From sequence record SRR20825006_2064: a stretch of DNA of 20,000 nucleotides. One strand, given 5' to 3'. The first letter of the stretch is position 1, and every line of letters starts with the position of its first letter. Below, piece after piece: positions 1-18,613 of the stretch. Below the pieces are notes generated by a model. It was not told the origin of the DNA. It searched no databases and saw only the letters and a program-made list of their open reading frames with translations. Position numbers and translations under genes: made by a program.

Positions 1-817
1 GTGAGGTGATGGCAAGTGCGTCTCTGGCGGATTGTTCAGATGCGTGGGCGAGGTCGATAATAATCTGCAACTCATCAAGGCGGCGGACAACCTGTTTGCC
101 AAAGTCTGTAAGCCCGGCCTTGCTGACACCGTGAAGTGAGCCGCCAAGCTCATTGTCAAAAAAGTGGGTCAGGCCAACCATGCGAAAACCTGCGGCATAC
201 ATTTTGTCTACATTAGCGATGTTACCCTCAAGCGGGTGTGCACCTTCGGTTCCCAAAAGGGCAGCGACAGGTTGCGGTACGGAACTTGTTTCGCGCGCCT
301 CGAGGAAGTCCTGAAGCTCTGACTGGGTGCGAACCCACATTAAACCACCCTCGGATTTCTTGATGAAACTATCCAGCTTTTCGGCCTGATAGAGCGCACG
401 TGCCAGAAGGCTGCTGTGTGTATCACTGGGCCAGCCCTGAAGGTATGAGACGAGCGTGATGTTGTCGCTGTTAGCCTCATTGGCGTGCACGTTCATGTTG
501 CGCGGTGTTTTTGTGACCGTGGTGAACATCTGCAGGGCCATGTTGCCGTCTCTTAGGCGCGGCAGGTCTACGTGCCCCCGGTCAGCGCGGTCAAGAAGGC
601 TGCGGTTCCAAAGCAGGGTATCGGCATGCCAGTCCATGATGCGGAGTGAGCCATGAAGTTCTGCTGCTTCGTCGCTAATGCTGAACGGGCGATTATCGAC
701 GATTTTGTTGAGCTGGCGCTCCAGGATGCCGGGCCCGAAGGTGCGGGCCGCAATATAAAGCACACCAGCAAGGATGGCAGTGCCCGCCAGAAACTTTAGC
801 AATCTGTTTTTCATCAT
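1..817 (-). CDS. Membrane dipeptidase, peptidase family M19 (renal dipeptidase-like), 3'-truncated by the window edge
   Basis: Translated by hand because it is absent from the ORF track (no stop in window). ATG at 817 is preceded by GGGGAGAAC. Sequence MMKNRLLKFLAGTAILAGVLYIAARTFGP (N-terminal TM/signal), then M19 motifs DWHADTLLW, HVDLPRLRDGN, LLGTEGAHPL and GFRMVGLTHFFDN. Confidence 0.92.
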   Translation of the reverse strand, partial: MMKNRLLKFLAGTAILAGVLYIAARTFGPGILERQLNKIVDNRPFSISDEAAELHGSLRIMDWHADTLLWNRSLLDRADRGHVDLPRLRDGNMALQMFTTVTKTPRNMNVHANEANSDNITLVSYLQGWPSDTHSSLLARALYQAEKLDSFIKKSEGGLMWVRTQSELQDFLEARETSSVPQPVAALLGTEGAHPLEGNIANVDKMYAAGFRMVGLTHFFDNELGGSLHGVSKAGLTDFGKQVVRRLDELQIIIDLAHASEQSARDALAITS

Positions 818-921: not shown

Positions 922-951
922 AAAAAAAGGGGCGCTGATCAAGGCGCCCCT
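922..951 (-). terminator. Rho-independent terminator of the blaI-M56 operon
   Basis: Minus strand reads AGGGGCGC-CTTGATCA-GCGCCCCT-TTTTTTA, about 24 nt after the M56 stop codon. Confidence 0.85.
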
Positions 952-974
952 CAAGAGAGTGTTTGGAAACTTGT

Positions 975-3797
975 CTAGATATTTGTGCCGTCCACTTTTG
1001 CGGGCTCAACCGTTGGGGCTGGTGCCGGTGTTGGGGCAGGACGCGGTGCTGAAGATGGGCCGCGCCTGCCACGCCGTGTATCGGGGTGATACTTGCCGGA
1101 CGCTAGTGCAGACACGCGCTCTCGTTCATATTTGGAATCAATGCCTTCAATGGCGCTGAAAAGGGCCTTATTGAGGTCTTTGTTGTCTTCCGGCATCAAG
1201 TAACGCAGGGCAAGCAGGGTTTCTGCCTTTTCATAGTCGCTATCGATTGCGGCGGTGGCATCAATAATTTCGCGCCAGGACTTGCTGCTCATTTTGCCGT
1301 AGGACGCGATCATCAGGATGGCCTGACGCCGCTCATAGTCGCTGTCGATCTGGTGCAGCGTTTCAACCAGCGTTTCCGTCGCGTCTTCAGATTCCTTGAT
1401 CTGCTCAACAAAGCTTCCGATGAACAAACGGAGTTCATAGTCGCTCTCAATGCGCTCCTTTGCGATTTTAGCCAGGCTCTTAATGTTCTTTTTGCTCAGC
1501 TTTTTCTCATGAATGATGGAGCTGAGAAGCAGTCGTTGCTCGTAGTCGCTCTCGATCCGCTCGGCGACCTCAAGCAGATCTTCCATCATGTCGCTATCGA
1601 GCTCGGAGCCCACCACGAAGGGAGTGAGCAGCAGGCGGATCTCATAGTCGCTTTCCATATTTTTCGCGAGGTCGATCAACACGCCCATGGTCTTCTTATT
1701 AACACCGAATTTTTCAAAATAAGGCGTCAGAAGAAGCCGAAGCTCATAATCGCTTTCGATTGACTTCGCGGCCTCAAGCACCACTGGCATAACCTTGGGT
1801 GAAAGGTTCTGTTCCATCATCATGGTGGTGAGGGCAAGCCGGGTCTCATAGTCGCTTTCCATCTGCGCGAGCCGCTCAACAAGCTTGAGCTGTTCTTTGT
1901 CGCTCAGTTTGGCTTCATGCATCAGGTGTGTTGCATAGATGCGGGTGACATAGTCGCTTTCAAGCTCGTCAATTTCTTTGATGACACCTTTGACACCATC
2001 CGCCTTGAGGATGCGTTTCACGCGCTGTGGTGCATTCAGGCCGGTTTCGCGAATAAGGGTGAGCAGGGTTTCTGCCACCCATTCCTGACCCTCGGTATCG
2101 AGCGCGGTTTTGTCACCGTCTACCCAGTAGGTGGTCTCGATTTTGCCGTCTTCACTCTCAAAACGAACACGGCGACGTGGTCCCTTGCCTTTGGTTTCAA
2201 GTTCGAGCTCACCACCGTCATCAACTTCGGCGACATAACGTTCGTCAGCGGTCAGTTCAAAGTTGCCATCCCATTCTGCTTTGATCGTATGGCCATTTTC
2301 TGTCCAGACCATGTTGCCGGTCATGTGCCCATCATCACGGGATGAGATGCTCACGCTGCGGCTATCGCCCTTGCGGTGCCCGCGCTTTTTGCCGTCATCG
2401 CTCACGAAGGTAAAGTTATCGCCGTCTAACTCGAGCGTGCCTTGAACGTTGGAAAGGCCCATTTCACGCATTGCGATATTGGTCTTGAATGGAGCCTCAG
2501 GCTCGTTCATGTCCATTGCCCAGTCGTCGGAAAGACTTGTCTCCGGGTTCAGGGCTTCGGCAAACTCGATGCTTGGCAAGCCAAGGGCGAGTACCACCAT
2601 CCCGGCGGTCAGGCCGGATTTGGCGAAGACGCCCGCGTTTTTAAAGGGCAGGCGTTCAGCACCAATCAGGCGCTCCACCCGCGTTTTCAGCATGGATTTA
2701 TTTCCTGCCATTGCTAATCCCCATTGTATCTGTCGGTTTTCTTGTATTTTTGTCGCGCAGGTAAAGAGAGCTGTGGCAACGGCTCTTGCGTCCGCTAGCT
2801 GCCGGGCAGCCCATTCGTCCGCGGCCAGTTCCGCGATATCTGTCAGCCGCCGGCGCGCAAGCATGAACATCGGCTGAAAGAAAAAGAGACGAGAAAGAAG
2901 TTGAAGCGCCATCAGCATGATCGGGTCGCGGCGCAACATGTGGCCAACCTCGTGTGCGAGAAGGCTTTTAAGTTCTTCGTGTGGTAGGTCGTCAAACGCC
3001 CAGTTTGGCAGGCATATCTCGCGCCGGGGCAGGCATATCGGACTTTTGATGTCTGATGATCGGCTGAGGTATGGCACATGCCGGATATCAACTTCTGCGC
3101 AGATTTCGCGCAGTGTTTGGTTGGCCTTATGTTCGGCCGGCACACGTGTGCGGCTGCCAAGGTCTTTTACGGCCAACCGGTATGCGAGCCCGAGCATGGC
3201 AATCGCGGCGAAAGCGATGAAACCCCATGCCAATGTGGCCAGTTGTTTGGTGCTTAGGTCCGCAACAGCATCAATCCAGCTTGTTGTATAGTAGTTCTCG
3301 CTGTCGCCCTCGGGGCTGTCGGTCTCGGGCATGGATATCTCGTGACCGGTGGCCGTTTCGGCCATGGTTTTAGTGCTGCTTGATGCTGTTGCGGACCTGA
3401 AGGTGCGACCATCTGATCCTCGAAGTTCAAGGGCTGGCGCTGAGGTGTCATCTACCTTGATGGCCTGCATTGGAATATCATTGTCGGGCACAAAGGCTTT
3501 GCCCGCTTCCCGCTTTGGTGCAAGGCCCTTCAATGGGCGGCCATCGTCAAAGCTTTGCACAATTTCTGCTGCGCGCGTGTGTTCAATTGTGATGGGGCCG
3601 GAGAGCCAGTCTCCGATCGGCAACAGGGCCGCGAACGAACCCGCGATAGCAAGCTTCCAGGCCAGTTCCGCCAGATCAGGTGTATTGATCAGCCGAATTT
3701 TCTCAAACACCCAGACAGCGCCCATCATAACGGTGCTGGCGACCATGAATTTCGCGAAGAGAGAGAGGAATGGCAGGTCTGAAATGAGATCAAACAT
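975..3797 (-). CDS. BlaR1/MecR1-type M56 metallopeptidase signal transducer with a non-PBP C-terminal repeat domain
   Basis: N-terminal TM helices, SPICL, zincin motif LAHEVGHMLRRD (nt ~2940-2954), FFFQP, ELAADEWA, LKTRVERL, then a further TM. Its start overlaps the stop of the blaI-family gene (TGATG). Confidence 0.93.
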   Translation of the reverse strand: MFDLISDLPFLSLFAKFMVASTVMMGAVWVFEKIRLINTPDLAELAWKLAIAGSFAALLPIGDWLSGPITIEHTRAAEIVQSFDDGRPLKGLAPKREAGKAFVPDNDIPMQAIKVDDTSAPALELRGSDGRTFRSATASSSTKTMAETATGHEISMPETDSPEGDSENYYTTSWIDAVADLSTKQLATLAWGFIAFAAIAMLGLAYRLAVKDLGSRTRVPAEHKANQTLREICAEVDIRHVPYLSRSSDIKSPICLPRREICLPNWAFDDLPHEELKSLLAHEVGHMLRRDPIMLMALQLLSRLFFFQPMFMLARRRLTDIAELAADEWAARQLADARAVATALFTCATKIQENRQIQWGLAMAGNKSMLKTRVERLIGAERLPFKNAGVFAKSGLTAGMVVLALGLPSIEFAEALNPETSLSDDWAMDMNEPEAPFKTNIAMREMGLSNVQGTLELDGDNFTFVSDDGKKRGHRKGDSRSVSISSRDDGHMTGNMVWTENGHTIKAEWDGNFELTADERYVAEVDDGGELELETKGKGPRRRVRFESEDGKIETTYWVDGDKTALDTEGQEWVAETLLTLIRETGLNAPQRVKRILKADGVKGVIKEIDELESDYVTRIYATHLMHEAKLSDKEQLKLVERLAQMESDYETRLALTTMMMEQNLSPKVMPVVLEAAKSIESDYELRLLLTPYFEKFGVNKKTMGVLIDLAKNMESDYEIRLLLTPFVVGSELDSDMMEDLLEVAERIESDYEQRLLLSSIIHEKKLSKKNIKSLAKIAKERIESDYELRLFIGSFVEQIKESEDATETLVETLHQIDSDYERRQAILMIASYGKMSSKSWREIIDATAAIDSDYEKAETLLALRYLMPEDNKDLNKALFSAIEGIDSKYERERVSALASGKYHPDTRRGRRGPSSAPRPAPTPAPAPTVEPAKVDGTNI
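1100..1975 (-). repeat. Nine in-frame tandem ~34-aa helical repeats with consensus [IM][ED]SDYExR.LL inside the M56 CDS
   Basis: The plus-strand motif CATAGTCGCT or a variant occurs at 1232, 1334, 1436, 1541, 1643, 1745, 1847 and 1949, with a diverged copy (SKYE) at 1127. Spacing is 102 nt, twice 105 nt. Confidence 0.92.
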
Positions 3798-4168
3798 CAG
3801 TTTTGCTCCTTCTCGAGAAGCGCTTCAACATCCTTGAGGTCGCCTTGATCAAAATCACCTTCCCGTACCAGATGTGCGAGCAGGGCTTTGCTGTCTCCCT
3901 TGAAAAGGGTGGAGACAAGGGATGATACCATCGAGCGTTTTACGTCACGTTCGTCAATTTCGGCCTTGTAGATGCGCTCACGTCCGCGGGTTTCCGATGA
4001 CAGCACACCTTTTTTCTCAAGCCGGGACAACACTGTGCCAACGGTCGTATGAGCCAGGGAAAGCGCTTCCAGTGCGTGCTGCACATCTTTTGCGGAGCCT
4101 TCGCCAAGTTGCCACAGAACCTGGACGATTTGATATTGCTGATCGCTGAGTTTGATATTGCCTGCCAT
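3797..4168 (-). CDS. BlaI/MecI/CopY family transcriptional repressor
   Basis: 123 aa winged helix: LSDQQYQIVQVLW, LAHTTVGTVLSRLEKKG, GRERIY, LFKGDSKALLAHLV. Translationally coupled to the M56 gene. Confidence 0.95.
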   Translation of the reverse strand: MAGNIKLSDQQYQIVQVLWQLGEGSAKDVQHALEALSLAHTTVGTVLSRLEKKGVLSSETRGRERIYKAEIDERDVKRSMVSSLVSTLFKGDSKALLAHLVREGDFDQGDLKDVEALLEKEQN

Positions 4169-4184
4169 CGATTTAAGCCTTTTC

Positions 4185-4200
4185 TACTACATGTGTAGAA
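4185..4200. promoter_or_regulatory. BlaI-type operator 1 (TACA-TG-TGTA)
   Basis: TACTACATGTGTAGAA contains the BlaI/MecI/CopY core TACA-N2-TGTA, 17-32 nt upstream of the blaI ATG. Confidence 0.88.
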
Positions 4201-4202
4201 GT

Positions 4203-4231
4203 GATTTACTACAGCTGTAGTAGGGCGTCAA
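4203..4231 (-). promoter_or_regulatory. Putative sigma70 promoter of the blaI-M56 operon
   Basis: Minus strand TTGACG-N17-TAAATC. Operator 2 occupies the spacer. Confidence 0.55.
4207..4222. promoter_or_regulatory. BlaI-type operator 2 (perfect 16-bp palindrome)
   Basis: TACTACAGCTGTAGTA. Its centre lies 22 bp from the centre of operator 1. Confidence 0.9.
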
Positions 4232-5681: not shown

Positions 5682-7166
5682 ATGATGAGACACCAAAACG
5701 GACGGAAAATTATAAAATTAGCCCTGGCGGCCGCTGTTTTTGGTGCAGGAATTTGGTACTTTACAGGCATTGAAAGCAGTAGCGAAGCTGCCATCGGGCA
5801 GTATGTTACCAAGCCCGCCGTAGTGGGCACAATCCAGCGCAGTGTGTCCGCTAGTGGCTCTGTCAGGCCCCTGATAACCGTTGATATCGGTTCACAGCTT
5901 TCCGGGCAGGTTGCGGAAATGCTTGCTGACTATAATGATGAAGTGGCCGAAGGCCAGCTCCTGGCTCGCATTGACCCCCAAACATTTGCGACAAGGGTAA
6001 AACAGGCAGAGGCTGAACTGGCGGTATCGCGTGCTCAAGTAACAGTACAACAAGCCTCGATCACACGGGCCAAGGCTCAGCTTCGCGAAGCGGAACGTAC
6101 CCTCGCACGGCAAAAGGATCTTGAGAAGCGTGGCAATGTCTCGATCAGCGCCCTTGAGGCGTCTGAGACAGCCTACACAACAACACAGGCAGATCTGGTC
6201 AGTGCGGAAGCACAGCTTGAAAATGCAAATGCTACCGTGGTTCAGCGCGAAGCTGCCCTTGACCAAGCACGTATCGATCTGGCGCGCACGGAAATCCGTT
6301 CCCCCATCAAAGGCACGGTGATCGCCCGTAGCGTGGATGTAGGGCAGACGGTGGCGGCAAGCCTTCAGGCCCCTGTGTTGTTTCAACTGGCGCAAGACCT
6401 TTCCGAAATTCAGGTGGAGGCCAGTGTGGACGAAGCAGATATCGGCACTGTGCGATCCGGGAACCGGGTGGTTTTTGGTGTGGATGCGTTTCCCGACCGC
6501 AGTTTTGACGGTGTGGTAAAACAGGTTCGCCTTGCTCCATTGGAGGAGGCCAATGTGGTGACCTATACCGTAGTTATTTCAGCCAGTAATACAGACCGCG
6601 CGTTGCTGCCAGGTATGACAGCGAATGTGGAGATATTTACAGGTGAAAAGGACAATGTACTGCGGGTCGCGAATGAGGCGTTGCGGTATCGCCCCAGCAA
6701 TCCGCCTGCTGACGTGGCCGAGGCGAGCTCAAGCCGAGGTGGTGGGCAGTTTATTGACCGATTTAGAGCCGAACTGGATCTGAGTGATGCGCAGGCCGAT
6801 GCGCTACGCACAGAGTTTGCAAAACTGCGGGCGCAAAGTGGCGCTGGTCGCAGCGGGGGTATGGGGATGGCGTCGACGGCGGGCAACGGCACAAACGATC
6901 GTCAGCAAGCACGGCAGCGCATGGAAGCCATGCTGGACAAGACTCTGAAAAATATCCTCAATGATGAGCAGTGGCGGCGTTATGAAGAAGGGAAGGCTGC
7001 CCGCTTCGATGTTCGCCGTGCACAGCTATGGGTGCTGGGACATGATGGAAAGCTCAAGCAGACGTCTGTATTGTTGGGATTGTCTGACGATGCAAATACC
7101 GAAATTATCCGTGGTCTGGAGGACGGCGCGCAGGTCGTGGTTCGGGAAGAAAGGCCAAGAGGATGA
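5682..7166 (+). CDS. MacA-like periplasmic adaptor (membrane fusion protein) of an ABC exporter
   Basis: N-terminal TM, VDIGSQLSGQV, coiled-coil hairpin, EIRSPIKGTVI, GQTVAASLQAPVLF, VDEADIG, LLPGMTANV, GLSDD. Confidence 0.92.
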   Translation: MMRHQNGRKIIKLALAAAVFGAGIWYFTGIESSSEAAIGQYVTKPAVVGTIQRSVSASGSVRPLITVDIGSQLSGQVAEMLADYNDEVAEGQLLARIDPQTFATRVKQAEAELAVSRAQVTVQQASITRAKAQLREAERTLARQKDLEKRGNVSISALEASETAYTTTQADLVSAEAQLENANATVVQREAALDQARIDLARTEIRSPIKGTVIARSVDVGQTVAASLQAPVLFQLAQDLSEIQVEASVDEADIGTVRSGNRVVFGVDAFPDRSFDGVVKQVRLAPLEEANVVTYTVVISASNTDRALLPGMTANVEIFTGEKDNVLRVANEALRYRPSNPPADVAEASSSRGGGQFIDRFRAELDLSDAQADALRTEFAKLRAQSGAGRSGGMGMASTAGNGTNDRQQARQRMEAMLDKTLKNILNDEQWRRYEEGKAARFDVRRAQLWVLGHDGKLKQTSVLLGLSDDANTEIIRGLEDGAQVVVREERPRG

Positions 7167-7873
7167 CGAATATTACGCCCGTCATTGAAGCCAAAGAACT
7201 TTACCGTCATTACCATCAGGGTAGCCAGGTGGTGAAAGCATTGGACGGCGTGGATGTGACCATTATGCCCGGTGAATTTGTGGCGGTGATGGGGCCGTCG
7301 GGCTCCGGCAAGTCGACTTTCATGAATATTTGCGGCGCACTCGACCAGCCAACCTCGGGTATGGTGAAAGTGGCAGGGAGGGATTTGTCTGCCCTGTCAC
7401 GCGATGAGTTGGCAAACCTTAGAAATGAAGTCATCGGTTTTGTATTCCAGCAGTTCAACCTGCTTCCGCGTACGAGCGCGCTTCAGAACACCATGCTGCC
7501 ACTTCGTTATGCAGGTATCCGTGGTCAGGAGGCGATTGATCGCTGTCGGCAGGCGCTTGAACGGGTGGACCTAGGCTCGCGCATGGACCATCACCCCAAT
7601 GAGCTTTCTGGTGGACAACAACAACGTGTGGCGATTGCCCGCGCACTGGTGACAAAACCTGCGCTGATTTTTGCCGATGAACCTACAGGTGCGCTTGATA
7701 GCGCGACATCTGTTGAAGTTTTGAAGCTTTTTCAACAGCTGAATGCAAACGGAATGACCATCGTGATGGTAACTCATGACGCCGATGTAGCCGCTTATGC
7801 CGGCCGCTGCCTGTATTTTAAGGATGGCCATATCGTACGGGATACGCTTGAGGAAGAGAGGGTGGCATCATGA
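7163..7873 (+). CDS. MacB/LolD-type ABC transporter ATP-binding protein
   Basis: Walker [44 protein letters not shown] and VTHD. ATGA overlap with the upstream gene. Confidence 0.96.
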
Positions 7874-9102
7874 CACTGCTTGCCACATTTATGATTGCTA
7901 TTGAGGCGTTGCGGCTCAACGCGTTGCGTACTGCTCTGGCTATGCTTGGTATTATCATCGGTGTTGCAGCGGTCATCACTATGGCCTCAATTTCCACTGG
8001 CGCATCAAAACGGGTGGAAGAGCATATCTCAAGTCTGGGTACCAATCTTTTGATAGCGCGACCGGGCTCCAACCGTTCTGGCGGAAGGCGCGGCGGTGCG
8101 GGCACGAGCGAATCCTTCAGTGAAAAGGACGTGACAGCAATCAGAAACAATGTGGCTGACATCGCCGCAATATCTGGTGTGGTTAACGCCTCTGGTGCGG
8201 TTGTTTACGGCAATAACAACTGGCAAACCGGCGTGCAGGGAGTACATGCGGATTTTCATATTGTGCGGGCTTGGGAGGTTGCCAGTGGTGTTCCGCTCAC
8301 CAACGAGGATGTCAGCCGCAAAACCAAGGTTGCGGTCATTGGCCAAACTGTAGCGGAAGAACTATTCGGCAGCCAGTCCCCGCTTGGAGAGCGTATCCGC
8401 ATCAAAAACATCCCCTTTGAAGTGATTGGCGTTTTGGCTGAAAAGGGCCAGTCAGGCATGGGACGTGATCAGGACGACACAATTCTTGTGCCTATTTCAA
8501 CTGCCCGTACCCGGCTTGTGGGGCGGGAAGGGTCGGTGGCTGAACCGGTGCAGATGATGTATATTTCCGTACGCGAGGGCGCGGATATGGCACTCGTGCA
8601 GGAGGACGTCGAGACGCTTTTGATGCAGCGGCGTAAAGTGAAACCCGGTGCTCAGGCAAATTTTGACGTACGCAATATGTCCGAATTTATCGAGGCACGC
8701 ACAGCCACTCAAAAAACCATGGGCATGTTGCTGGCTACCTCTGCTGCCATTTCCCTCGTGGTTGGCGGTATTGGTATTATGAATATCATGCTGGTGTCAG
8801 TGACGGAGCGCACCCGTGAAATTGGTTTGCGCATGGCCGTGGGCGCACGCGGGCGGGATATCCTGATCCAGTTTCTGGTGGAGGCGATAACGCTTTGTCT
8901 GGTTGGCGGCATGATTGGGCTGGCCGTCGGAGCAGGGTGCTCAGGCCTGGTGGCGCATTATGCGGACTGGCCGGTGTTGATGGACCCTGTGTATATAGCA
9001 CTTGCGCTAGCAGGTTCCGCAACTGTCGGGCTATTCTTCGGATTTTATCCTGCGCGGCGTGCATCACGCCTTAATCCGATAGACGCATTACGGTACGAAT
9101 AG
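7870..9102 (+). CDS. MacB-type ABC transporter permease (MacB_PCD + FtsX)
   Basis: RTALAMLGIIIGVAAVI, ISLVVGGIGIMNIMLVSVTERTREIGLRMAVGA, FGFYPARRASRLNPIDALRYE. Confidence 0.96.
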   Translation: MTLLATFMIAIEALRLNALRTALAMLGIIIGVAAVITMASISTGASKRVEEHISSLGTNLLIARPGSNRSGGRRGGAGTSESFSEKDVTAIRNNVADIAAISGVVNASGAVVYGNNNWQTGVQGVHADFHIVRAWEVASGVPLTNEDVSRKTKVAVIGQTVAEELFGSQSPLGERIRIKNIPFEVIGVLAEKGQSGMGRDQDDTILVPISTARTRLVGREGSVAEPVQMMYISVREGADMALVQEDVETLLMQRRKVKPGAQANFDVRNMSEFIEARTATQKTMGMLLATSAAISLVVGGIGIMNIMLVSVTERTREIGLRMAVGARGRDILIQFLVEAITLCLVGGMIGLAVGAGCSGLVAHYADWPVLMDPVYIALALAGSATVGLFFGFYPARRASRLNPIDALRYE

Positions 9103-10492: not shown

Positions 10493-11227
10493 ATGTCGAT
10501 CTGGGGAAAAATAATTGGTGGCACGGCAGGGCTTGCTATTGGTGGGCCCTTGGGGGCTTTGCTTGGTCTTGCCGCTGGCGCAGCGCTTGATGCGGGCGTT
10601 GATGCAGGTAGCCGCACTAGCGATGCAACCCGCCATGTAACCTTCACGATTGGTGTGATCGCGCTTGCTGCCAAAATGGCGAAAGCAGACGGACAGGTCA
10701 CTCGGGAAGAAGTGGATGCCTTCAAGCAGGTTTTCCGCGTGCCTCCTGAGGAAATGCGTAACGTAGGGCGCGTTTTTGACATGGCCCGCCAGCATACTGC
10801 AGGCTTTGACGCTTATGCTAAACAGATTGCCGACCTGATGCGAGGCAACAAAACGGTGCTTGATGATCTTCTGGAAGCGTTGTTTTTTATCGCAAAAGCA
10901 GACGGCGAGGTTCATCCCAATGAGCTCGACTATATTCGCGCTGTTGCACAAATTTTTGGATACTCGAAGCAGGAAATTGCCTCGCTGGTACATCGCCATG
11001 TTGGGGCCGACCCCAATTGCCCTTATGGTGTCCTTGGTGTTGACCCCAAGATCGGGGATCAGGAACTGAAATCACACTACCGCAAGCTTGTGCGGGAAAC
11101 CCATCCAGACCGTTTGATTGCAGAAGGGGTGCCCAACGATTTTATCGCTGTGGCGACCCGGCGCGCGGCGGAGATCAACGCCGCATATGATCAAATCGTG
11201 GCAGAGCGGAAGAGGGTTAACGCATGA
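10493..11227 (+). CDS. djlA: DjlA-like co-chaperone (N-terminal TM/Gly zipper, TerB-like domain, C-terminal J domain)
   Basis: MSIWGKIIGG..GGPLGALLG, ALAAKMAKADG, IAKADG, PYGVLG, YRKLVRETHPD (HPD motif), INAAYD. Confidence 0.88.
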   Translation: MSIWGKIIGGTAGLAIGGPLGALLGLAAGAALDAGVDAGSRTSDATRHVTFTIGVIALAAKMAKADGQVTREEVDAFKQVFRVPPEEMRNVGRVFDMARQHTAGFDAYAKQIADLMRGNKTVLDDLLEALFFIAKADGEVHPNELDYIRAVAQIFGYSKQEIASLVHRHVGADPNCPYGVLGVDPKIGDQELKSHYRKLVRETHPDRLIAEGVPNDFIAVATRRAAEINAAYDQIVAERKRVNA

Positions 11228-12120
11228 AGCTGCTAGATATCCTTCTGGTCATCCTTATCGCGGTTGTTTGGGGCGTTAATTTTGTCGCGGTCAAATATGC
11301 GGTGGCGGACCTGTCGCCCATGGTGGCCAACTGTGTACGGTTCATCGCGGTTGTTATCGTTCTTATGCCGTTTCTCCGTATTGTACCGGGCCGGATGGCG
11401 GATTTGGCGCTGGCGGCGGTAGTTCTTGGTGTTGTTCACTTCGGCGCGGTTTTCTGGGCGATGGAGCTATCAGACGGTGTTGGTTCTGTTGCTATCGCTT
11501 CCCAGCTCAACGTTCCCTTTTCCACAATTCTTGCGGTGGTTATTCTGCGCGAAACCGTTGGCTGGAAACGGGTCGCCGGTATAGCGCTTAGTTTCCTGGG
11601 GGTGCTCGCACTGGGGCTTGACCCAACCGTGTTCGACTATTGGGAAGGTTTGCTGATGATGACCTTCGCGGCGCTCATGTATTCGGTTTCTGCCATATTG
11701 ATGCGACGGCTTAAGGATGTGCGCGCGGTGACCACACAGGCCTGGGTTGGTGTAGCGGGAGTTATTGGGTCAGCTATACTCTCGTTTCTCTTCGAAGACG
11801 GCCAGGTCGAGATGGTCAAAAACGCTGGCCTGATGGCATGGCTTGGGGTGCTTTATAGCGGGATCGGATCGTCTGTTATCGGACATGGCGGCGCCAATTA
11901 TCTGCTAAGAAAATACGAAGTTTCCGTCGTGTCCCCTTATTTCTTGATGACACCTGTTGCAGCTGTGCTTGCGGGTATCTGGATCATGAATGAGGAATTT
12001 ACCTGGCGCATGGCACTCGGCGGTGCGTTGACGCTTCTCGGTGTGCTGATTGTGACACTGCGTAACAACGCGCGGTCAACCAAAGTAGCAGAGATCGGGG
12101 AGGACCGCGCGGCGGTCTAG
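11224..12120 (+). CDS. DMT/EamA family transporter
   Basis: About 10 TM helices, VWGVNFVAVK, QLNVPFSTILAVVILRE, VVSPYFLMTPV. ATGA overlap with djlA. Confidence 0.93.
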   Translation: MKLLDILLVILIAVVWGVNFVAVKYAVADLSPMVANCVRFIAVVIVLMPFLRIVPGRMADLALAAVVLGVVHFGAVFWAMELSDGVGSVAIASQLNVPFSTILAVVILRETVGWKRVAGIALSFLGVLALGLDPTVFDYWEGLLMMTFAALMYSVSAILMRRLKDVRAVTTQAWVGVAGVIGSAILSFLFEDGQVEMVKNAGLMAWLGVLYSGIGSSVIGHGGANYLLRKYEVSVVSPYFLMTPVAAVLAGIWIMNEEFTWRMALGGALTLLGVLIVTLRNNARSTKVAEIGEDRAAV

Positions 12121-12126
12121 CAGTTG

Positions 12127-12873
12127 ATGAAGGATGCTATCCATACCCCGTCCCCCAACTGGAATGAGCGCCCCGGCGGCACCTGTATTGATACTGTTGT
12201 TATTCACTACACCGGCATGCAAAGCGGCGAAGCAGCGCTTCGGCGGCTTTGTGACCCTAAAGCAGAGGTGTCTGCACATTATCTGATTGAAGAGGACGGG
12301 CGCCTTTTCCAACTGGTGGATGAAGAGAAGCGGGCATGGCACGCAGGCGTTTCAAGCTGGCGGGGACAGGATAATATAAACCATAATTCTATCGGGATTG
12401 AGCTGGTTAATCCGGGGCATGAGTTTGGCTATCGCCCGTTTCCAGAGCCACAGATTGAGCGTTTGATATCGCTTCTGTCTCATCTCAAATCATGCTATAA
12501 TATAACAGTAAATGGTTTTGTTGGTCATAGTGATATCGCGCCGGGCCGCAAGCTGGACCCAGGTCCGCTTTTCCCGTGGAAAAAGCTTGCGGAGAACGGT
12601 TTTGGGCTGTGGCCAAGGTGCGACGGGAAGAATTCGAGCAAGGTGATGATGCATGGTCAAGAAAATGTCCCAAAAAGCGACTATGTCATCAAGCTTAACA
12701 AACAATTAGGTATCGTTGGATATCATTTAGGTGACATTCAGAGTTTCAACGCCACGCATCAGTCTGTAGTTCGTGCCTTCCAGGCGCATTGGCGGCCTGA
12801 GACCGTATCCGGCCTTGTTGATATTGGCACCGTCATGGTGCTTGAAGATATCGCAGGGCAGATACGCCAATAG
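12127..12873 (+). CDS. N-acetylmuramoyl-L-alanine amidase (Amidase_2, AmpD/AmiD-like) with C-terminal PG-binding-like region
   Basis: SPNWNER, VIHYT, VSAHYLI, RAWHAGVSSW, SIGIELVN, GHSDIAPGRKLDPG, RAFQAHWRP..VSG..D. Confidence 0.95.
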   Translation: MKDAIHTPSPNWNERPGGTCIDTVVIHYTGMQSGEAALRRLCDPKAEVSAHYLIEEDGRLFQLVDEEKRAWHAGVSSWRGQDNINHNSIGIELVNPGHEFGYRPFPEPQIERLISLLSHLKSCYNITVNGFVGHSDIAPGRKLDPGPLFPWKKLAENGFGLWPRCDGKNSSKVMMHGQENVPKSDYVIKLNKQLGIVGYHLGDIQSFNATHQSVVRAFQAHWRPETVSGLVDIGTVMVLEDIAGQIRQ

Positions 12874-12883
12874 GGGAAAGTAT

Positions 12884-14089
12884 ATGAAAACGTTGCTTCT
12901 TTCGACCGCTCTGACAGTGTTTGCGAGCCCGGTTTTTGCACAAAGCCCGACCGTCGGGACCGAGCACCGACCCAACGAGCATACTGTCGCCTGCCTTGAG
13001 GCACCGACACGGGACTGTGCGTTTACGGCTGCGTTACAGACGGTTATTAACGAAGAGTTTGGTATTGAGCGCGCGAAGGTTCTTATTGGTGTTGCCCGGT
13101 CAATGATCGACACAGGGCAGATAGACCAAGCGAAGCAGACGTTGATGCTGGCGCTTGATGAAGCTCGTTCTGTACGTTTGACGCTGGTAACGCAGGAAAA
13201 GATTACGGAAATTGCGCCTCTTATGGCTCGTGCCGGTGATGTGGCAGCAGGTCTCGCACTTGTGGAAGAATTGCAGAACGAATCGATTAAAGACACAACG
13301 CTGACCGAAATCGCTGAAGAGGCTATCAAATCTGGCCAGTTGGCGGATGCCCGGGTGGCGCTTGCGCAAGTGTCCAACCGCTCCAAAGCGTTTTGGCGAG
13401 AGCTTAGCCTTTTATCCCGCGCACCGCGGGCTGCACTGGCTGCAGTGAACCTCAAAGATCTGGAGGTGGGCGTTCGTGCGTTGGAGCGGATAGATCAACA
13501 GTATCGTGGACTTGTGCAGTTGGCAGTTGTCGCTGACAGAAAAGGTGATGCAGCAGAACGGAATGGCTATCTCACGGAAGCTGACGAAATGTTTTCCGGC
13601 GTCATTGGCATTGGAACCCGTGCTGACGTAACCGCTCAACGGGTACGGACAATGTATGACGCAGGCATGGACCCGGCGTTTGTTCGTACCAGCTATGACC
13701 TCGCTATCCTGCACGGAGACCGCTTGCGCGAAGAAGCTTCTCAGGCGGACTTTGCCTCCAAGATTGGTGCGGTAGAAGCAGGGATCGGCTATCTGGATGC
13801 TGCGCTTGACCGGCTCTCTACCTTCAAACAAGTAGACGCCAAGGCGACATACCTCTCCTCCCTCCGTACCACCAGCGGTCAAGAGGAACTGGCTGGCCAG
13901 TTCCGTGACGTTCTCAGCGAAGTTGGACAGGTTCAGGGCGCGTATGAGCGCGATATCGTGCGCCTGTCCCTTCTTGAGGGTGCGCTGGGTAATGCAGACA
14001 TTAATCTGGCTCGTAACATCGTGCGCACGATTGAGGATGATGATAACCAGGCCTTGGCTCTGGCGCTCATGGCGCCGTTGCTCGATTAG
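12884..14089 (+). CDS. Secreted hypothetical protein, all-alpha with TPR/HEAT-like repeats
   Basis: ATG at 12884 follows GGGGAAAG. Signal peptide MKTLLLSTALTVFASPVFA-Q, a Cys pair (CLEAPTRDC), and recurrent 'L..IA...A..G....A' helices. Confidence 0.8.
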   Translation: MKTLLLSTALTVFASPVFAQSPTVGTEHRPNEHTVACLEAPTRDCAFTAALQTVINEEFGIERAKVLIGVARSMIDTGQIDQAKQTLMLALDEARSVRLTLVTQEKITEIAPLMARAGDVAAGLALVEELQNESIKDTTLTEIAEEAIKSGQLADARVALAQVSNRSKAFWRELSLLSRAPRAALAAVNLKDLEVGVRALERIDQQYRGLVQLAVVADRKGDAAERNGYLTEADEMFSGVIGIGTRADVTAQRVRTMYDAGMDPAFVRTSYDLAILHGDRLREEASQADFASKIGAVEAGIGYLDAALDRLSTFKQVDAKATYLSSLRTTSGQEELAGQFRDVLSEVGQVQGAYERDIVRLSLLEGALGNADINLARNIVRTIEDDDNQALALALMAPLLD

Positions 14090-14144: not shown

Positions 14145-17100
14145 TTATCCCTCTTGGGCCGCCGCGTCTGCCCGTGCTTTGGCCGAACCTTCGCCAGGAG
14201 CGGTGACTGCCCTGCGGCGGGTAAGCCACAGGAAAGCCGCTGGCGCGTAGTAGAAGCTCACAATCATCGAGAGGAAAGCGCCACCGGCCATTGCCACGGC
14301 AAACGGTGGCCAGAAGGCGCCACCCGCCAGAATGAGCGGGGTGAAGCCCCCAACTGTTGTGATGGTGGTGGAAACAATATGGCGGCCGGTTTTCATCACT
14401 CCTTCAACCACTGCATCTTCGTTGCCCGCACGCGCCTTAGGCATGCCGCGAAGCTCAGACAGGATAACGATAGCCGCGTTGATGGCGAGGCCGACAAGCC
14501 CCATCAGGCCAAAGATCACCACAAAGCTGAGCGGATACCCAAAAAACCACAGGGAGAATAGCCCGAGCCCTGCCGCTTGAACGGCCGCTGCAAAGGTAAC
14601 GAAAGCCATGCGGAAGCTATTGAACGTAAGCACGATGGCCAGCAGCATCAGCACGAGCAACAGGCCGACGGTGCCAAACAGTTGACCAACCGCCTCATTG
14701 CGCTCTTCGCTTTCGCCGCCAAACTCTACCTTATAGCCGGGTGGGATTTGAAGGTCAGCTTTATCAAGCTCACGCAGCATGGCCTGGAAGGCCACTTCCG
14801 GCAGTACGTCAAAGTCCAGATACGCCATTACCTTGTTCATGCGCACGCTGTTGTAATGCTCGATCGTGCCGACCTTCGTGGACAGTTTGACGTCGGCGAC
14901 GGCCGAGACCGGTATATCAGAGAAGGACCGGTCTTGCTCCCGCCCTGAATTTGGTGCGAGCAGGCTCATGTTGGCGATGGAGTTGGTATCCTGCCAGTTT
15001 GCGCGGTCAGCGATCACTTTAACGGGCACCTGCTGGGTTTCTTCAATCACATAGGTGGCCGTAATGCCTGTGGTAAGCGCTTGCAGTTGGCTCTCAACCT
15101 GCTTGAGCGTCAGGCCGGTGACAGACACGTCGTCCTCCCGGGCTTCAACCGTTACCATCGGCCTGCCAGCCTTAAGGGTCATGCGCGTGATGGTCACGTT
15201 TGGCAGCCTGCTTAAAATGGCTCGTATATCTTCGCCGATGCGCTCAAGGGTGGCGAGATCAGGGCCGAGTACACGCACTTCAATAGGGGCTGAGATAGGC
15301 GGCCCGGTACCAAACTCGCGCACAAGCACAATCGCTTCTGGAAGCGTCTCGGTTAGCTCCGCTTGCAGACGGGGGATCATGTCCGGAATCTGGTTGAAGT
15401 GCTCAACAGTGACCACACCAACACCTGCGTTCACGAGGCCGTCGGTCTGAGCAATCATGGCATAATAGAATTTTGCAGGCCGGGTACCAATAAACCAGTG
15501 GGAGCTTTGGATGGCATCCTCCCTCTCAAGCCGCTTTTGCACCATCTCAACCGCTTTTTGAGTTTCCTCAATGGCGGTTTGTGCGGGCATATAAAGCTCG
15601 ATACGGAACTGGTTACGGTCACTGGTCGGGAAAAACTGTTCTGTCAGCTGCCCTGCAAGCACAAAGCCAAGAACGGGGATGGTGGTTGCCACGACCATTG
15701 AGCGGATCGGATAGCGAACCGACCACTGAAGGCTTTTCTTGAAACGGCTTGAAAGCCATTCGGCGTCTACACCGTCACGCCACCACACTCGCTTGATATG
15801 AGCAGCAGGGTCGCCACCCGGCGCACGGCCTTCAACCACCCGCCCCGCAACCGCCGAGATGATTGTGAAGGCAATGACGTAAGACGCGATCAGGGACGCA
15901 ATCACTGCAGCCGGAACACCTAGGAGGAAGTCACCGGCATTGCCGGGCATCAGCACAAGCGGCATGAAGGCAATGATGGTTGTCATGGTTGAACCAAGAA
16001 GAGGCAGCCATAGTTTACGAACAGTTCGCGCCACAGCGACGGACCGGCGAACGCCCTGAAGGCGTAGCTGTTGAATTTCATCTGTTATAACGATGGCGTT
16101 GTCCACCATGATGCCCAGCGCCACGATAAGCCCGGTTACCAATACCTGCTGAATGCGGAGGCCCATCATATGGGTCATGGCGAGGGCCGCTAAGATCGTG
16201 AGCGGCAGGATGGAGGCAGATACAAGCGATGCACGCCAGCCAAGCGATATCAGGAGCACGACAAGCACCACAAGCGCACCCTCGGCCAGATTGCCCATCA
16301 GGCCATGCAGGCGTTCGTCAGCGTAATCACTTTGGTCAAAAATTCGGTCCAGATGCACGGAGGAAGGCAGTGTGCCCCGCATTTCTTCCATGATGCTGCC
16401 AACCTGGGCTGACCAGGCATCAACCCTGCTGTCCTCGAACATGCGCACCGCAATCACCACACCGTAGTGACCGTCAAGGTAGGCCAGCTTGCTTGGGGGG
16501 TCGTCAAAGCCGCGTTCAATGACAGCAACGTCACCAAGCCTCAGGCTCGCGCCGCTTTCATCAAGCCCCAGCGGAATGCGCCGAATACGGGCAAGGTTAT
16601 CAATTGCGCCGGAAACCTGCACCACCATGCGGTTTTCACCGTTTGATACAACGCCGGCTGCACCGCGTGCATCTGAACCCTGAATGCGGGCTGCGACATC
16701 TGCCATGGTAAGGCCATAGGCTGCCAGTTCCGCGTCATCTACCGCGACGCGGATTTCTTCCTGCGGCAAGCCTATAATGTCCACGAAGTCCGTACCGGCT
16801 AGGTTGCGGATTTTGCTTTCGATCTCACGGGCATGACGACCAAGGATAGCATAGTTGATCGGGGTGTCTGCGTGCCATGTCAGTGACAGGATCGCGGAGT
16901 GTGCATAGATGCGTGTGTCAGAGAAATCTGGTGCACTGGAACCTGCCGGCAGGTCTGTTACCTCAGACACTTTGTCACGCAGCCGGGCGGTAATGGGCTT
17001 CGCATCATCCACGCGGTCTTCAAGCTCAATGGTAATGAGCGATACACCGGGGTTGGATACGCTTCGTACCGTTTTAACTTCAGGCACTTCGCGTATCTTG

Positions 17101-17300
17101 CCTTCAAGTTTTTCGGTGATCTCGGCTTCTACCCGCTCGGCGTCAGCACCGGGGTATAGCGTGGTAACCTGAACGATCCGGCTTTCCATATGCGGATCTT
17201 CAAGCTTGGGCATGTTGAAGAAACTGTTGAACCCCGCAATAACGATGAGAAGCAGGATGAGCCAGACCACGCGCGGGTGGTTATAAAGGGAGCCTTGCAT
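14145..17300 (-). CDS. RND efflux transporter permease (AcrB/AcrD/AcrF family)
   Basis: 1051 aa. MPKLEDP, YPGADAERVE..ITEKLE, GIMVDNAIV, STMTTIIAFMPL, QFFPTSDR, FGGESEE, RHIVSTTITT, FWPPFAVAMAGG. Confidence 0.95.
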   Translation of the reverse strand: MQGSLYNHPRVVWLILLLIVIAGFNSFFNMPKLEDPHMESRIVQVTTLYPGADAERVEAEITEKLEGKIREVPEVKTVRSVSNPGVSLITIELEDRVDDAKPITARLRDKVSEVTDLPAGSSAPDFSDTRIYAHSAILSLTWHADTPINYAILGRHAREIESKIRNLAGTDFVDIIGLPQEEIRVAVDDAELAAYGLTMADVAARIQGSDARGAAGVVSNGENRMVVQVSGAIDNLARIRRIPLGLDESGASLRLGDVAVIERGFDDPPSKLAYLDGHYGVVIAVRMFEDSRVDAWSAQVGSIMEEMRGTLPSSVHLDRIFDQSDYADERLHGLMGNLAEGALVVLVVLLISLGWRASLVSASILPLTILAALAMTHMMGLRIQQVLVTGLIVALGIMVDNAIVITDEIQQLRLQGVRRSVAVARTVRKLWLPLLGSTMTTIIAFMPLVLMPGNAGDFLLGVPAAVIASLIASYVIAFTIISAVAGRVVEGRAPGGDPAAHIKRVWWRDGVDAEWLSSRFKKSLQWSVRYPIRSMVVATTIPVLGFVLAGQLTEQFFPTSDRNQFRIELYMPAQTAIEETQKAVEMVQKRLEREDAIQSSHWFIGTRPAKFYYAMIAQTDGLVNAGVGVVTVEHFNQIPDMIPRLQAELTETLPEAIVLVREFGTGPPISAPIEVRVLGPDLATLERIGEDIRAILSRLPNVTITRMTLKAGRPMVTVEAREDDVSVTGLTLKQVESQLQALTTGITATYVIEETQQVPVKVIADRANWQDTNSIANMSLLAPNSGREQDRSFSDIPVSAVADVKLSTKVGTIEHYNSVRMNKVMAYLDFDVLPEVAFQAMLRELDKADLQIPPGYKVEFGGESEERNEAVGQLFGTVGLLLVLMLLAIVLTFNSFRMAFVTFAAAVQAAGLGLFSLWFFGYPLSFVVIFGLMGLVGLAINAAIVILSELRGMPKARAGNEDAVVEGVMKTGRHIVSTTITTVGGFTPLILAGGAFWPPFAVAMAGGAFLSMIVSFYYAPAAFLWLTRRRAVTAPGEGSAKARADAAAQEG

Positions 17301-17311
17301 CTATGCCTCCC

Positions 17312-18442: not shown

Positions 18443-18508
18443 CGTGTCGTCCTGCTGTTGTGGCTCGAGCCTGGCCTTTGGCCTTTTTGTTCCAGCACGC
18501 TTATATAA

Positions 18509-18529
18509 TAAACTGGACCGTCCAGTCCA
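18509..18529. promoter_or_regulatory. Putative TetR operator near the adaptor promoter
   Basis: TAAACTGGACCGTCCAGTCCA contains the palindrome ACTGGAC-C-GTCCAGT and also TGGAC-N6-GTCCA. Confidence 0.7.
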
Positions 18530-18613
18530 TAAAATAATTTATAAGATTCCGTAGGGTAATTTCGACAATTTACACTTGATGTATTGCATATAGTGTGGTG
18601 GCATTGGTATTTG

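What the first reader, a model, noticed from the sequence alone, without database searches (positions are those of the whole stretch)
975..4231. BlaI-M56 one-component proteolytic signalling system with a non-beta-lactam sensor of nine 34-aa 'SDYE' repeats
Seen in sequence: an intact blaI-family repressor, two TACA-N2-TGTA operators, and a translationally coupled 940-aa M56 protease with an HEVGH zinc motif. After the last TM the protein continues as a low-complexity linker, a beta-rich segment, nine tandem helical repeats and a Pro/Ala tail. Established: in BlaR1/MecR1 this position holds a class-D-like penicillin-binding domain with SxxK/SxN/KTG motifs, and ligand binding leads to repressor inactivation. 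Inference: a ~300-aa alpha-solenoid replaces that sensor, so the system probably detects a macromolecule or envelope state (peptide, protein, glycan) rather than a beta-lactam. No beta-lactamase gene is adjacent. I know of no characterised member with this architecture, although uncharacterised homologues probably exist.
Basis: partly seen in the sequence, partly recalled or inferred. Interest (0 to 1): 0.75.

Follow-up and report, generated by a model that had tools for sequence, protein, structure and literature searches.

The report
BlaR-like protease with helical-repeat sensor
A marine bacterium carries a BlaI repressor and BlaR-type membrane protease pair whose outward-facing sensor is not a penicillin-binding domain but an unnamed, widespread beta-domain plus helical-repeat module, so it probably senses something other than beta-lactams, and what that is remains unknown.

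Summary
Window 975-4231 (minus strand) carries a 123-aa BlaI-family repressor. Behind it lies a 940-aa M56 gluzincin that overlaps it by one base. Two CTACAnnTGTAG palindromes sit on the blaI promoter, and a terminator follows the operon. The window comes from a Kordiimonas MAG chromosome.

After the last membrane helix comes an acidic linker, then a nine-strand beta domain, then nine 34/35-aa two-helix repeats and a Pro/Ala tail. AlphaFold2 models this region at pLDDT 92.6. Foldseek finds only generic alpha-solenoids for the repeats and nothing significant for the beta domain. No PBP motif or fold is present.

The Ser of each SDYE motif lies one residue before the second helix of its repeat, which fits a helix-capping role.

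The module is not rare. A profile of it finds 4,060 cluster representatives. Most of those checked are fused to M56, and some stand alone behind signal-peptide-like N-termini. No Pfam family covers it.

A 2026 paper already shows that most M56 proteins lack the beta-lactam-binding domain, so the concept is known. This particular sensor module is undescribed.

The signal and the regulon are unknown. A divergent diguanylate cyclase gene is only a candidate target. I rate this a new variant of a known kind, of moderate interest.

The parts
4226..4231 (-). -35-like box TTGACG of the blaI promoter
   Evidence: Read from the sequence. TTG is invariant and TTGAC is present in 9 of 12 aligned Kordiimonadales intergenic regions. 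The consensus promoter scan did not call it, so the promoter assignment is inference.
4209..4220 (.). Operator 1, palindrome CTACAGCTGTAG. It ends the 17-nt spacer (4209-4225) between the -35-like box and a -10-like TAAATC (4203-4208).
   Evidence: An operator pair is conserved upstream of blaI: two perfect TACAnnTGTA sites in 24 of 29 loci.
4187..4198 (.). Operator 2, palindrome CTACACATGTAG, centred 22 bp from operator 1 and just downstream of the -10-like box
   Evidence: It is nearly invariant in the 12-sequence alignment.
3797..4168 (-). blaI-family winged-helix repressor, 123 aa, with no cysteine
   Evidence: PF03965 at E 6.5e-27, 94.6 bits. Sequence matches in the PDB: MecI 1okr at E 2.7e-8 and BlaI 1sd4 at E 4.2e-7. 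CopY_TcrY scores 72.7 bits, below its 121.95 cutoff.
975..3797 (-). M56 membrane metalloprotease with a periplasmic sensor, 940 aa (coordinates include the stop codon)
3249..3614 (-). Extracytoplasmic loop between TM2 and TM3 (aa 62-183, 122 aa, net charge -10). It is the positional counterpart of BlaR1 loop EL1.
   Evidence: Hydropathy and charge counts. BlaR1 EL1 comprises residues 56-96 (PMC9834060, passages). Its first ~30 residues are conserved among Kordiimonadales.
2550..3248 (-). TM3, cytoplasmic gluzincin domain and TM4 (aa 184-416). HEVGH lies at aa 282-286 (window 2940-2954) and ELAAD at aa 323-327 (window 2817-2831).
   Evidence: Pfam M56 covers aa 184-376. H282, E283, H286, R289, D291, E323 and D327 are invariant in 118 aligned sequences. 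The H-to-E spacing is 41 residues, as in BlaR1 H201 to E242.
2364..2549 (-). Acidic linker after TM4 (aa 417-478)
   Evidence: Composition: aa 417-470 has net charge -9. No Pfam match. Not modelled, apart from aa 471-478, which have low pLDDT.
2103..2363 (-). All-beta domain of nine strands (aa ~479-565)
   Evidence: AlphaFold2 models with block pLDDT 84-98 in this stretch. Foldseek against the PDB gave 0 matches at E<=1e-3.
1995..2096 (-). Junction helices between the beta domain and the repeats (aa 568-601)
   Evidence: DSSP of the models. G601 is present in at least 90% of 118 aligned sequences.
1071..1994 (-). Nine 34/35-aa helix-turn-helix repeats with the S-D-Y-E box (aa 602-909)
   Evidence: The Ser of each box is the residue before helix B in all nine repeats.
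978..1070 (-). Basic, Pro/Ala-rich C-terminal tail (aa 910-940)
   Evidence: Sequence. 8 Pro in 35 residues, aa 906-940. Not conserved in distant relatives.
927..952 (-). Intrinsic-terminator-like hairpin (9 pairs, 7 G-C) followed by a T run, 23 nt after the M56 stop codon
4288..5574 (+). Divergent membrane diguanylate cyclase (GGEEF plus an RxxD I-site). A candidate target of the repressor, not shown to be one.
   Evidence: PF00990 at E 2.7e-34. Motifs. A neighbour in 23 of 29 loci, but within a generally syntenic block.

Best explanation
This is a two-gene, autoregulated BlaI/BlaR-type proteolytic signalling operon of a Kordiimonas (marine alphaproteobacterium).

Proposed mechanism:
1. The BlaI-like dimer binds two CTACAnnTGTAG palindromes. 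One ends the spacer of its own promoter and the other lies just downstream of the -10-like box. This represses blaI-M56.
2. The M56 protein is an inner-membrane gluzincin whose HExxH...ExxxD site faces the cytoplasm.
3. Its C-terminal ~520 residues face the periplasm. They form an acidic linker, a nine-strand beta domain, a nine-repeat alpha-solenoid and a Pro/Ala tail.
4. An unknown periplasmic cue is read by this module. The cue is not a beta-lactam acylating an active-site serine. It is more likely a macromolecular or envelope-associated ligand.
5. By analogy with BlaR1, the change is passed across the membrane, possibly through the enlarged TM2-TM3 loop. It activates the protease, which cleaves the repressor and derepresses the operon and any other operator-bearing genes.

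The conserved S-D-Y-E box is best read as a helix N-capping or inter-repeat structural motif. Ligand specificity would then lie in more variable surface residues or in the beta domain.

What is shown here: gene anatomy, motifs, the predicted fold, family size and operator conservation. What is inferred: topology, signalling, cleavage of the repressor, and the nature of the cue.
For: - Family assignments.
- Catalytic motif: H282, E283, H286, E323 and D327 are invariant in 118 aligned sequences. The H-to-E spacing of 41 equals that of BlaR1.
- The segment QWGLAMAG aligns with the BlaR1 autocleavage loop. It is conserved enough to have served as a search pattern.
- Operators: 2 found against 0.07 expected. 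Two perfect sites lie upstream of blaI in 24 of 29 loci. They are the main conserved elements of the intergenic region, together with the -35-like box.
- A terminator follows the M56 gene.
- Topology: flanking K+R counts are TM1 0/2, TM3 0/3 and TM4 4/0.
- 12 of 20 short stand-alone relatives on contigs of 14.8 kb or longer start with a hydrophobic, signal-like segment (examples).
- Fold: pLDDT 92.6 and pTM 0.84; pLDDT 91.7.
- No PBP appears among the printed Foldseek rows. No SxN or KTG motif is present.
- The module is tied to M56. 112 of the 120 listed hits carry PF05569. 91 of 115 new top profile hits carry HExxH.
- BlaR1 cleaves BlaI directly (PMC9834060).
- 96% of M56 proteins lie within five genes of a BlaI (PMC13492132).
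Against: - No experiment exists for any member of this sub-family.
- No inducer is known for the studied non-canonical systems. Efforts to find one for CenIR were unsuccessful (PMC13492132; section heading seen in the outline).
- The position aligned to the BlaI/MecI scissile bond Asn101-Phe102 reads His99-Leu100 here. Cleavage at that site is therefore not assured.
- No target gene other than the operon itself carries an operator in the window or in the 29 loci.
- An EL1-to-sensor contact could not be examined. No full-length model was obtained.
Confidence: 0.6

Rival explanations
1. The module is not a ligand receptor. It is a periplasmic scaffold, tether or ruler, for example one that reaches the peptidoglycan or outer membrane through the Pro/Ala tail, or one that mediates oligomerisation. 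On this view the protease responds to mechanical or envelope-integrity changes, or acts constitutively or on other substrates.
For: Structural matches are only to generic scaffolding solenoids, including a periplasmic flagellar-motor scaffold at rank 19. The most conserved residues sit at a helix N-cap, which fits a structural role. Repeat number varies from about 4 to 13, as expected for a length-tunable scaffold. Stand-alone secreted forms exist.
Against: The beta domain and the junction are as conserved as the repeats. The module is fused to a signalling protease in most of the cases checked. The tail is not conserved in distant relatives.
Confidence: 0.17
2. The repeats bind cations or metals through the repeated Ser/Asp/Tyr/Glu side chains, so the system is an ion or metal sensor.
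For: S, D, Y and E are 95%, 99%, 86% and 93% conserved over 1,332 repeat units, with the caveat that the units were anchored on a loose form of the motif. The whole module is acidic: net charge -15 in the repeats and -9 in the beta domain. The repressor's best NCBIfam match is CopY/TcrY.
Against: The CopY score is below its cutoff, and the repressor has no cysteine at all. The Ser lies exactly at the N-cap, and S-x-x-E is the classical helix capping box (recalled knowledge; positions). No metal-binding family matched.
Confidence: 0.08
3. The system still serves cell-wall or beta-lactam stress, sensing peptidoglycan fragments or damage indirectly rather than the drug itself.
For: A membrane-anchored M19 dipeptidase lies downstream in 17 of 29 loci. 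The C. difficile non-canonical system CenIR controls cell-envelope genes (PMC13492132, abstract). An AmpD-like amidase gene lies 8 kb away.
Against: A terminator separates M56 from the M19 gene. No operator precedes the M19 gene. No beta-lactamase or PBP gene is in the window. The synteny extends to unrelated genes.
Confidence: 0.08

Closest known systems
Staphylococcus aureus BlaR1/BlaI and MecR1/MecI (PDB 8exp, 1xa7, 1sd4, 1okr)
   Same: Repressor gene followed by an M56 gene. TACA/TGTA palindromic operators on its own promoter. HExxH...ExxxD gluzincin site with identical 41-residue spacing. The extracytoplasmic sensor follows the last TM. A loop between TM2 and TM3 faces outward.
   Different: The sensor is a beta domain plus a nine-repeat alpha-solenoid, not a class-D-like penicillin-binding domain. 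The loop is 122 aa against about 40. There is no adjacent beta-lactamase or PBP2a gene. The NCBIfam blaR1_generic score is 39 against a cutoff of 400. Residues at the aligned BlaI cleavage site differ (His-Leu against Asn-Phe).
Clostridioides difficile CenIR (Kurtz et al. 2026, PMC13492132)
   Same: A BlaIR-family pair whose sensor lacks the transpeptidase domain. The signal is unknown.
   Different: The CenR C-terminal part is short and predicted to be disordered. Here it is about 520 aa and confidently folded. CenIR is from a Gram-positive host, and its regulon has been determined experimentally.
Mycobacterial BlaIR (Rv1845c/Rv1846c; PDB 2g9w for the repressor) and Pseudomonas aeruginosa PvmSR (bioRxiv 10.64898/2026.08.03.742534)
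   Same: Atypical BlaIR pairs that do not control beta-lactam resistance (preprint passages read).
   Different: Those M56 proteins lack a sensor domain altogether. This one has a large one.
M56 proteins with TonB_C, Plug, M23 or other C-terminal domains (architectures listed by Kurtz et al. 2026)
   Same: The same principle: an M56 transducer carrying a swapped extracytoplasmic domain.
   Different: The module here matches none of those Pfam families. It falls in that paper's 'no identifiable domain' class.
Pfam DUF4476 (PF14771), uncharacterised
   Same: Weak matches to the repeats of three relatives: P0227 at 25.3 bits, P0210 at 21.7 and P0134 at 21.6. An Atlas lead points the same way.
   Different: The window protein does not match it even at E<=10. 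Only 2 of 121 short relatives match. The family has no known function.

Membership tests
BlaR1/MecR1 beta-lactam sensor-transducer (strict sense) | Peptidase M56 domain with HExxH...ExxxD | tested here: met
   PF05569 at 66.1 bits against a cutoff of 31. HEVGH at aa 282-286 and ELAAD at aa 323-327, invariant in 118 aligned sequences.
BlaR1/MecR1 beta-lactam sensor-transducer (strict sense) | C-terminal penicillin-binding (transpeptidase-like) domain with SxxK, SxN and KTG | tested here: not met
   No PF00905 or other Pfam match in aa 420-940. No SxN or K[ST]G motif. The predicted fold is a beta domain plus an alpha-solenoid, with no PBP among the printed Foldseek rows.
BlaR1/MecR1 beta-lactam sensor-transducer (strict sense) | NCBIfam blaR1_generic or sensor_BlaR1 score at or above the curated cutoff | tested here: not met
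   39.2 bits against 400, and 22.5 bits against 1200.
BlaR1/MecR1 beta-lactam sensor-transducer (strict sense) | Linked beta-lactamase or low-affinity PBP gene under the same operators | tested here: not met
   None found among the window ORFs scanned. The operators occur only at the blaI promoter.
BlaIR family in the broad sense (M56 protease plus BlaI-like repressor) | M56 gene adjacent to a PF03965 repressor gene | tested here: met
   The two genes overlap by 1 nt. The pairing is present in all 29 related loci.
BlaIR family in the broad sense (M56 protease plus BlaI-like repressor) | Signal-dependent cleavage of the repressor by the M56 protease | not testable with these tools
   Needs a western blot or reporter assay. 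The aligned scissile position reads His99-Leu100.
BlaIR family in the broad sense (M56 protease plus BlaI-like repressor) | N-out, C-out topology with a cytoplasmic active site | tested here: inconclusive
   Hydropathy and positive-inside counts agree with this topology, and stand-alone relatives carry signal-like N-termini. No dedicated topology predictor or experiment was available.
BlaI/MecI/CopY repressors (PF03965) | Winged-helix Penicillinase_R domain | tested here: met
   94.6 bits against a cutoff of 22.6. Matches to MecI and BlaI structures.
CopY/TcrY copper repressors | Equivalog score, and a C-terminal Cys-rich metal site | tested here: not met
   72.7 bits against 121.95. The protein has no cysteine. 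That the Cys motif defines the family is recalled knowledge.
DUF4476 (PF14771) | Pfam gathering score | tested here: not met
   No match for the window protein at E<=10. Only 2 of 121 short relatives match.
TPR / HEAT / ARM repeat families | Sequence match to a repeat profile at the curated cutoff | tested here: not met
   HEAT_2 scores 15.8-17.3 bits against 27.7. Fold-level likeness is to generic alpha-solenoids only, with TM <= 0.35.

The most novel reading that the evidence does not exclude
The beta-domain plus SDYE-repeat module is a previously unrecognised, phylum-spanning extracytoplasmic receptor. It would read a repeating polymer (a glycan, a peptide or an envelope polymer) with one register per repeat. 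In Kordiimonadales its BlaI/M56 output would switch on the divergently transcribed diguanylate cyclase, linking an outside polymer cue to c-di-GMP by regulated proteolysis of a repressor.
Probability: 0.12. Interest if true: 0.75.

Novelty: new variant of a known kind. Interest (0 to 1): 0.5.

Why it matters
BlaIR systems are still annotated and thought of as beta-lactam resistance switches. Recent work shows that most of them sense something else, and almost no alternative sensor domain has been defined.

This locus gives a clear example of such a domain:
- It is large and confidently folded.
- It has thousands of relatives in named taxa including Alphaproteobacteria, Zixibacteria, Gemmatimonadota, Thermoanaerobaculia and Planctomycetes. 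Atlas leads point also to Bacteroidota and Acidobacteriota.
- No Pfam family covers it, and it has no solved structure.

Naming the module would do three things. It would correct many 'BlaR1' annotations. It would supply a tractable target for ligand discovery, because cultured Kordiimonas type strains carry the operon. It would allow a test of whether the BlaR1 loop-displacement mechanism generalises to non-enzymatic sensor domains.

Tried and rejected
**Family and structure searches**
- Pfam, NCBIfam and PADLOC on the C-terminal region gave nothing at threshold.
- Sequence search of the PDB with aa 420-940 found only a designed repeat protein, at E 0.0027.
- DUF4476 kinship was followed up and judged marginal: 2 of 121 short relatives, plus one M56 relative.
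- Foldseek on the beta domain gave no match at E<=1e-3. The weak CapZ, p32, Aster and lipocalin rows (TM <= 0.36) were rejected as meaningless.
- The module was not found on plasmids: tblastn against PLSDB gave no match.

**Operators, targets and RNA**
- A further operator was sought in the window with up to 2 mismatches. Only chance-level sites inside genes turned up.
- The divergent GGDEF gene as a regulon member could be neither shown nor excluded. The conserved blocks of the intergenic region are the blaI -35-like box and the two operators. 9 of 22 orthologues lack a GG[DE]EF motif. The neighbourhood is syntenic as a whole.
- Rfam found no riboswitch near the operon.

**Steps that could not be made**
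Gene neighbourhoods of the distant relatives (Zixibacteria, Gemmatimonadota and others) therefore stayed unchecked.
- Supplementary tables of Kurtz et al. 2026 were not seen. They may list architectures relevant here.

**Literature searches**
- 'SDYE' + repeat + periplasmic: 0 papers.
- Kordiimonas + BlaR: 1 paper, on taxonomy.
- DUF4476: 2 papers, both on eukaryotic cilia.
- M56/BlaR + c-di-GMP: nothing relevant among the 5 papers listed.

Full report
**1. What is in the sequence**

On the minus strand the window holds a 123-aa ORF (3797..4168) and a 940-aa ORF (975..3797).
- The two ORFs share one base, in a TGATG stop/start overlap. An AAGGAG ribosome-binding site lies 9 nt before the second start.
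- The small protein is a Penicillinase_R winged-helix repressor (PF03965, E 6.5e-27).
- Its closest solved relatives by sequence are MecI (E 2.7e-8) and BlaI (E 4.2e-7).
- It scores best in NCBIfam against CopY/TcrY, but below the cutoff (72.7 against 121.95 bits), and it has no cysteine. It is therefore not a CopY-type copper repressor.
- The large protein matches Peptidase_M56 over aa 184-376 (E 4e-18). It aligns with S. aureus BlaR1 (8exp) over aa 244-374.
- H282, E283, H286, R289, D291, E323 and D327 are invariant in a 118-sequence alignment.
- The H282-to-E323 spacing is 41 residues. That equals BlaR1 H201ExxH to E242xxxD (PMC9834060, passages read).

**2. Promoter and operators**

- TACAnnTGTA occurs exactly twice in 20 kb, both times upstream of blaI. 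Chance expectation is 0.07, and 0 of 200 shuffles gave two or more.
- Each site is a 12-bp palindrome. Allowing two mismatches adds only chance-level sites inside genes.
- My reading of the sequence is as follows: TTGACG at 4226-4231; then a 17-nt spacer whose last 12 bases are operator 1 (4209-4220); then a -10-like TAAATC (4203-4208); then operator 2 (4187-4198).
- The consensus promoter scan did not call this promoter, so this layout is inference.
- Two perfect sites lie upstream of blaI in 24 of 29 related loci. Three more loci have one perfect and one degenerate site.
- In an alignment of 12 intergenic regions, the -35-like box and the two operators are the main conserved blocks apart from the start codon.
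- A strong terminator-like hairpin (9 pairs, 7 G-C, then a T run) follows the M56 stop codon.
- The unit is therefore a two-gene operon that very probably represses itself.

**3. Topology**

- Hydropathy gives membrane segments at about aa 10-31, 43-61, 184-211 and 388-416, plus a hydrophobic stretch at 293-313 next to the active site.
- K+R counts in the 15 residues on either side are 0/2 for TM1, 0/3 for TM3 and 4/0 for TM4.
- This puts the N-terminus, the 122-aa TM2-TM3 loop and the C-terminal 524 residues outside, and the protease inside, as in BlaR1.
- Independent support comes from relatives of the C-terminal module that stand alone and begin with signal-peptide-like segments: examples, and 12 of 20 short forms on contigs of 14.8 kb or longer.
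- No dedicated topology predictor was available.

**4. The C-terminal module**

- Nothing in Pfam, NCBIfam or PADLOC matches aa 420-940 at threshold.
- The region holds no SxN and no K[ST]G motif.
- AlphaFold2 on aa 480-905, with a 30-sequence alignment, gave mean pLDDT 92.6 and pTM 0.84. The model has nine beta strands (aa ~481-564) followed by 20 helices.
- A second model of aa 471-612 gave pLDDT 91.7 with the same strands.
- The nine repeats (S[DK]Y at aa 614 to 888, period 34/35) are two-helix units.
- In all nine, the Ser is the residue immediately before the second helix.
- S-x-x-E is the classical helix 'capping box' (recalled knowledge). The motif is therefore most simply a structural cap and inter-repeat contact. 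I could not see coordinates, so I cannot say where the Asp and Tyr side chains point.
- Foldseek against the PDB returned only generic alpha-solenoids: designed repeat proteins, armadillo, HEAT, TPR and Puf. The best E-value was 2e-4 and TM scores were 0.35 or lower.
- For the beta domain Foldseek returned no match at E<=1e-3; the best was 0.023.
- No PBP or beta-lactamase fold appears in the printed rows.
- The repeats are old. Mean pairwise identity is 26%, and no tandem repeat of that period is seen in the DNA.

**5. How common it is**

- A word-indexed search with aa 420-940 gave 441 hits at E<=1e-3 among 8,000 scored candidates. 112 of the 120 listed carry PF05569.
- A profile of the module alone (501 positions; M56 columns excluded, checked) was searched against 1.84 billion cluster representatives. 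It found 4,060 proteins at E<=1e-3 and 1,817 at E<=1e-30.
- Of 115 new top hits, 91 carry HExxH. The other 24 are fragments or stand-alone forms.
- A search among shorter proteins gave 198 more hits, none with a precomputed Pfam domain among the 120 listed.
- Source names include Kordiimonas species, Zixibacteria, Gemmatimonadota, Thermoanaerobaculia and Planctomycetes.
- Atlas leads point to Bacteroidota and Acidobacteriota.
- Across the 120 proteins of the first search (query included), 705 of 795 motif spacings are exactly 34. Repeat counts range from about 4 to 13.
- In 1,332 repeat units from 235 proteins the box reads S 95%, D 99%, Y 86% and E 93%. The caveat is that units were anchored on a loose form of the motif.
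- Distant members alternate two sub-types, SDYEkAELL and SDYEtRRVL.
- DUF4476 weakly matches three relatives but only 2 of 121 short forms. It does not match the window protein.

**6. Context and possible targets**

- The window is part of a Kordiimonas MAG chromosome (L001, 100% identity).
- Upstream and divergent from blaI lies a membrane diguanylate cyclase with GGEEF and an RxxD I-site. It shares the 119-bp intergenic region that holds the operators.
- A homologue lies next to blaI in 23 of 29 loci. An M19 dipeptidase lies downstream in 17 of 29.
- Three points count against a functional link:
  - All 29 loci appear to belong to one alphaproteobacterial order, or near it.
  - The whole block FabH-like / GGDEF / blaI / M56 / M19 / MAPEG or DUF188 is syntenic.
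  - 9 of 22 orthologues examined lack a GG[DE]EF motif.
- I treat the cyclase as a candidate target only.
- No beta-lactamase gene was found in the window.

**7. Comparison with what is known**

- Kurtz et al. 2026 (PMC13492132; passages, abstract) grouped about 15,000 M56 proteins into 254 architectures.
- They found the transpeptidase domain in only about 6% of them.
- The commonest class was M56 followed by a C-terminal region with no identifiable domain.
- A BlaI-like gene lay within five genes in about 96%.
- CenR of C. difficile, the mycobacterial BlaR and P. aeruginosa PvmS (preprint passages) are the studied non-canonical cases. All have short, disordered or absent sensor domains.
- The present protein belongs to the 'no identifiable domain' class. 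Its C-terminal region, however, is a large and confidently folded module that recurs widely.
- I found no paper describing that module.
- It works like BlaR1, by inference. It is a member of the broad BlaIR family. It is not a BlaR1/MecR1 beta-lactam sensor in the strict sense.

**8. Verdict**

The ligand inference is untested, and the concept is already in print. What is new is the definition of this sensor module. I rate it a new variant of a known kind, with interest 0.5.

Noticed in passing
window 19827-20000 (+): The 5' half of a bacterial RNase P class A RNA (141 bits, model positions 1-176 of 367), cut off by the end of the window.
   Followed up: no
window 5682-9102 (+): A MacA/MacB-like efflux set: an HlyD-family adaptor, an ABC ATPase and a MacB_PCD/FtsX permease. 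It lies between the GGDEF gene and the FabH-like gene. Only L003 and L004 share it. In most other loci the FabH-like gene directly abuts the GGDEF gene.
   Followed up: partly
window 2-817 (-), continuing in L001 10981-12162: An M19 'membrane dipeptidase' with a hydrophobic N-terminal segment, downstream of the operon in 17 of 29 loci. A terminator separates it from the M56 gene, and no operator precedes it.
   Followed up: partly
loci L014, L016, L017, L019, L021-L025 (GGDEF orthologues): The divergent GGDEF-domain neighbours in these nine loci lack a recognisable GG[DE]EF motif, and those scanned give weaker Pfam scores. They may be degenerate, non-catalytic domains.
   Followed up: partly
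window aa 704-737 of the M56 protein (about 1587-1688); L026 8001-11909: Repeat number changes within the order. The window protein and its five closest relatives have nine repeats. Most other Kordiimonadales appear to lack one unit. The L026 ORF is 1,302 aa and has extra units.
   Followed up: partly
relatives P0070, P0080, P0097, P0116 and other distant members: In Gemmatimonadota, Zixibacteria and unnamed metagenome members (P0080, P0097, P0116) the repeats alternate two sub-types (SDYE-K-A-E-L-L and SDYE-T-R-R-V-L). This suggests a 68-aa super-repeat.
   Followed up: no
L029 3535-6963: A Robiginitomaculum locus pairs a shorter, different M56 protein and a BlaI with a PF00144 serine beta-lactamase-like gene. 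A PilZ-domain gene lies nearby. This is a separate BlaIR sub-type picked up by the M56 patterns.
   Followed up: no
window 10493-12873 (+) and 14145-19402: Other genes in the window: a TerB-DnaJ fusion, an EamA transporter, an AmpD-like Amidase_2, a 438-aa ORF with no Pfam match (12773-14089), an RND pump with its adaptor, and a TetR regulator.
   Followed up: no
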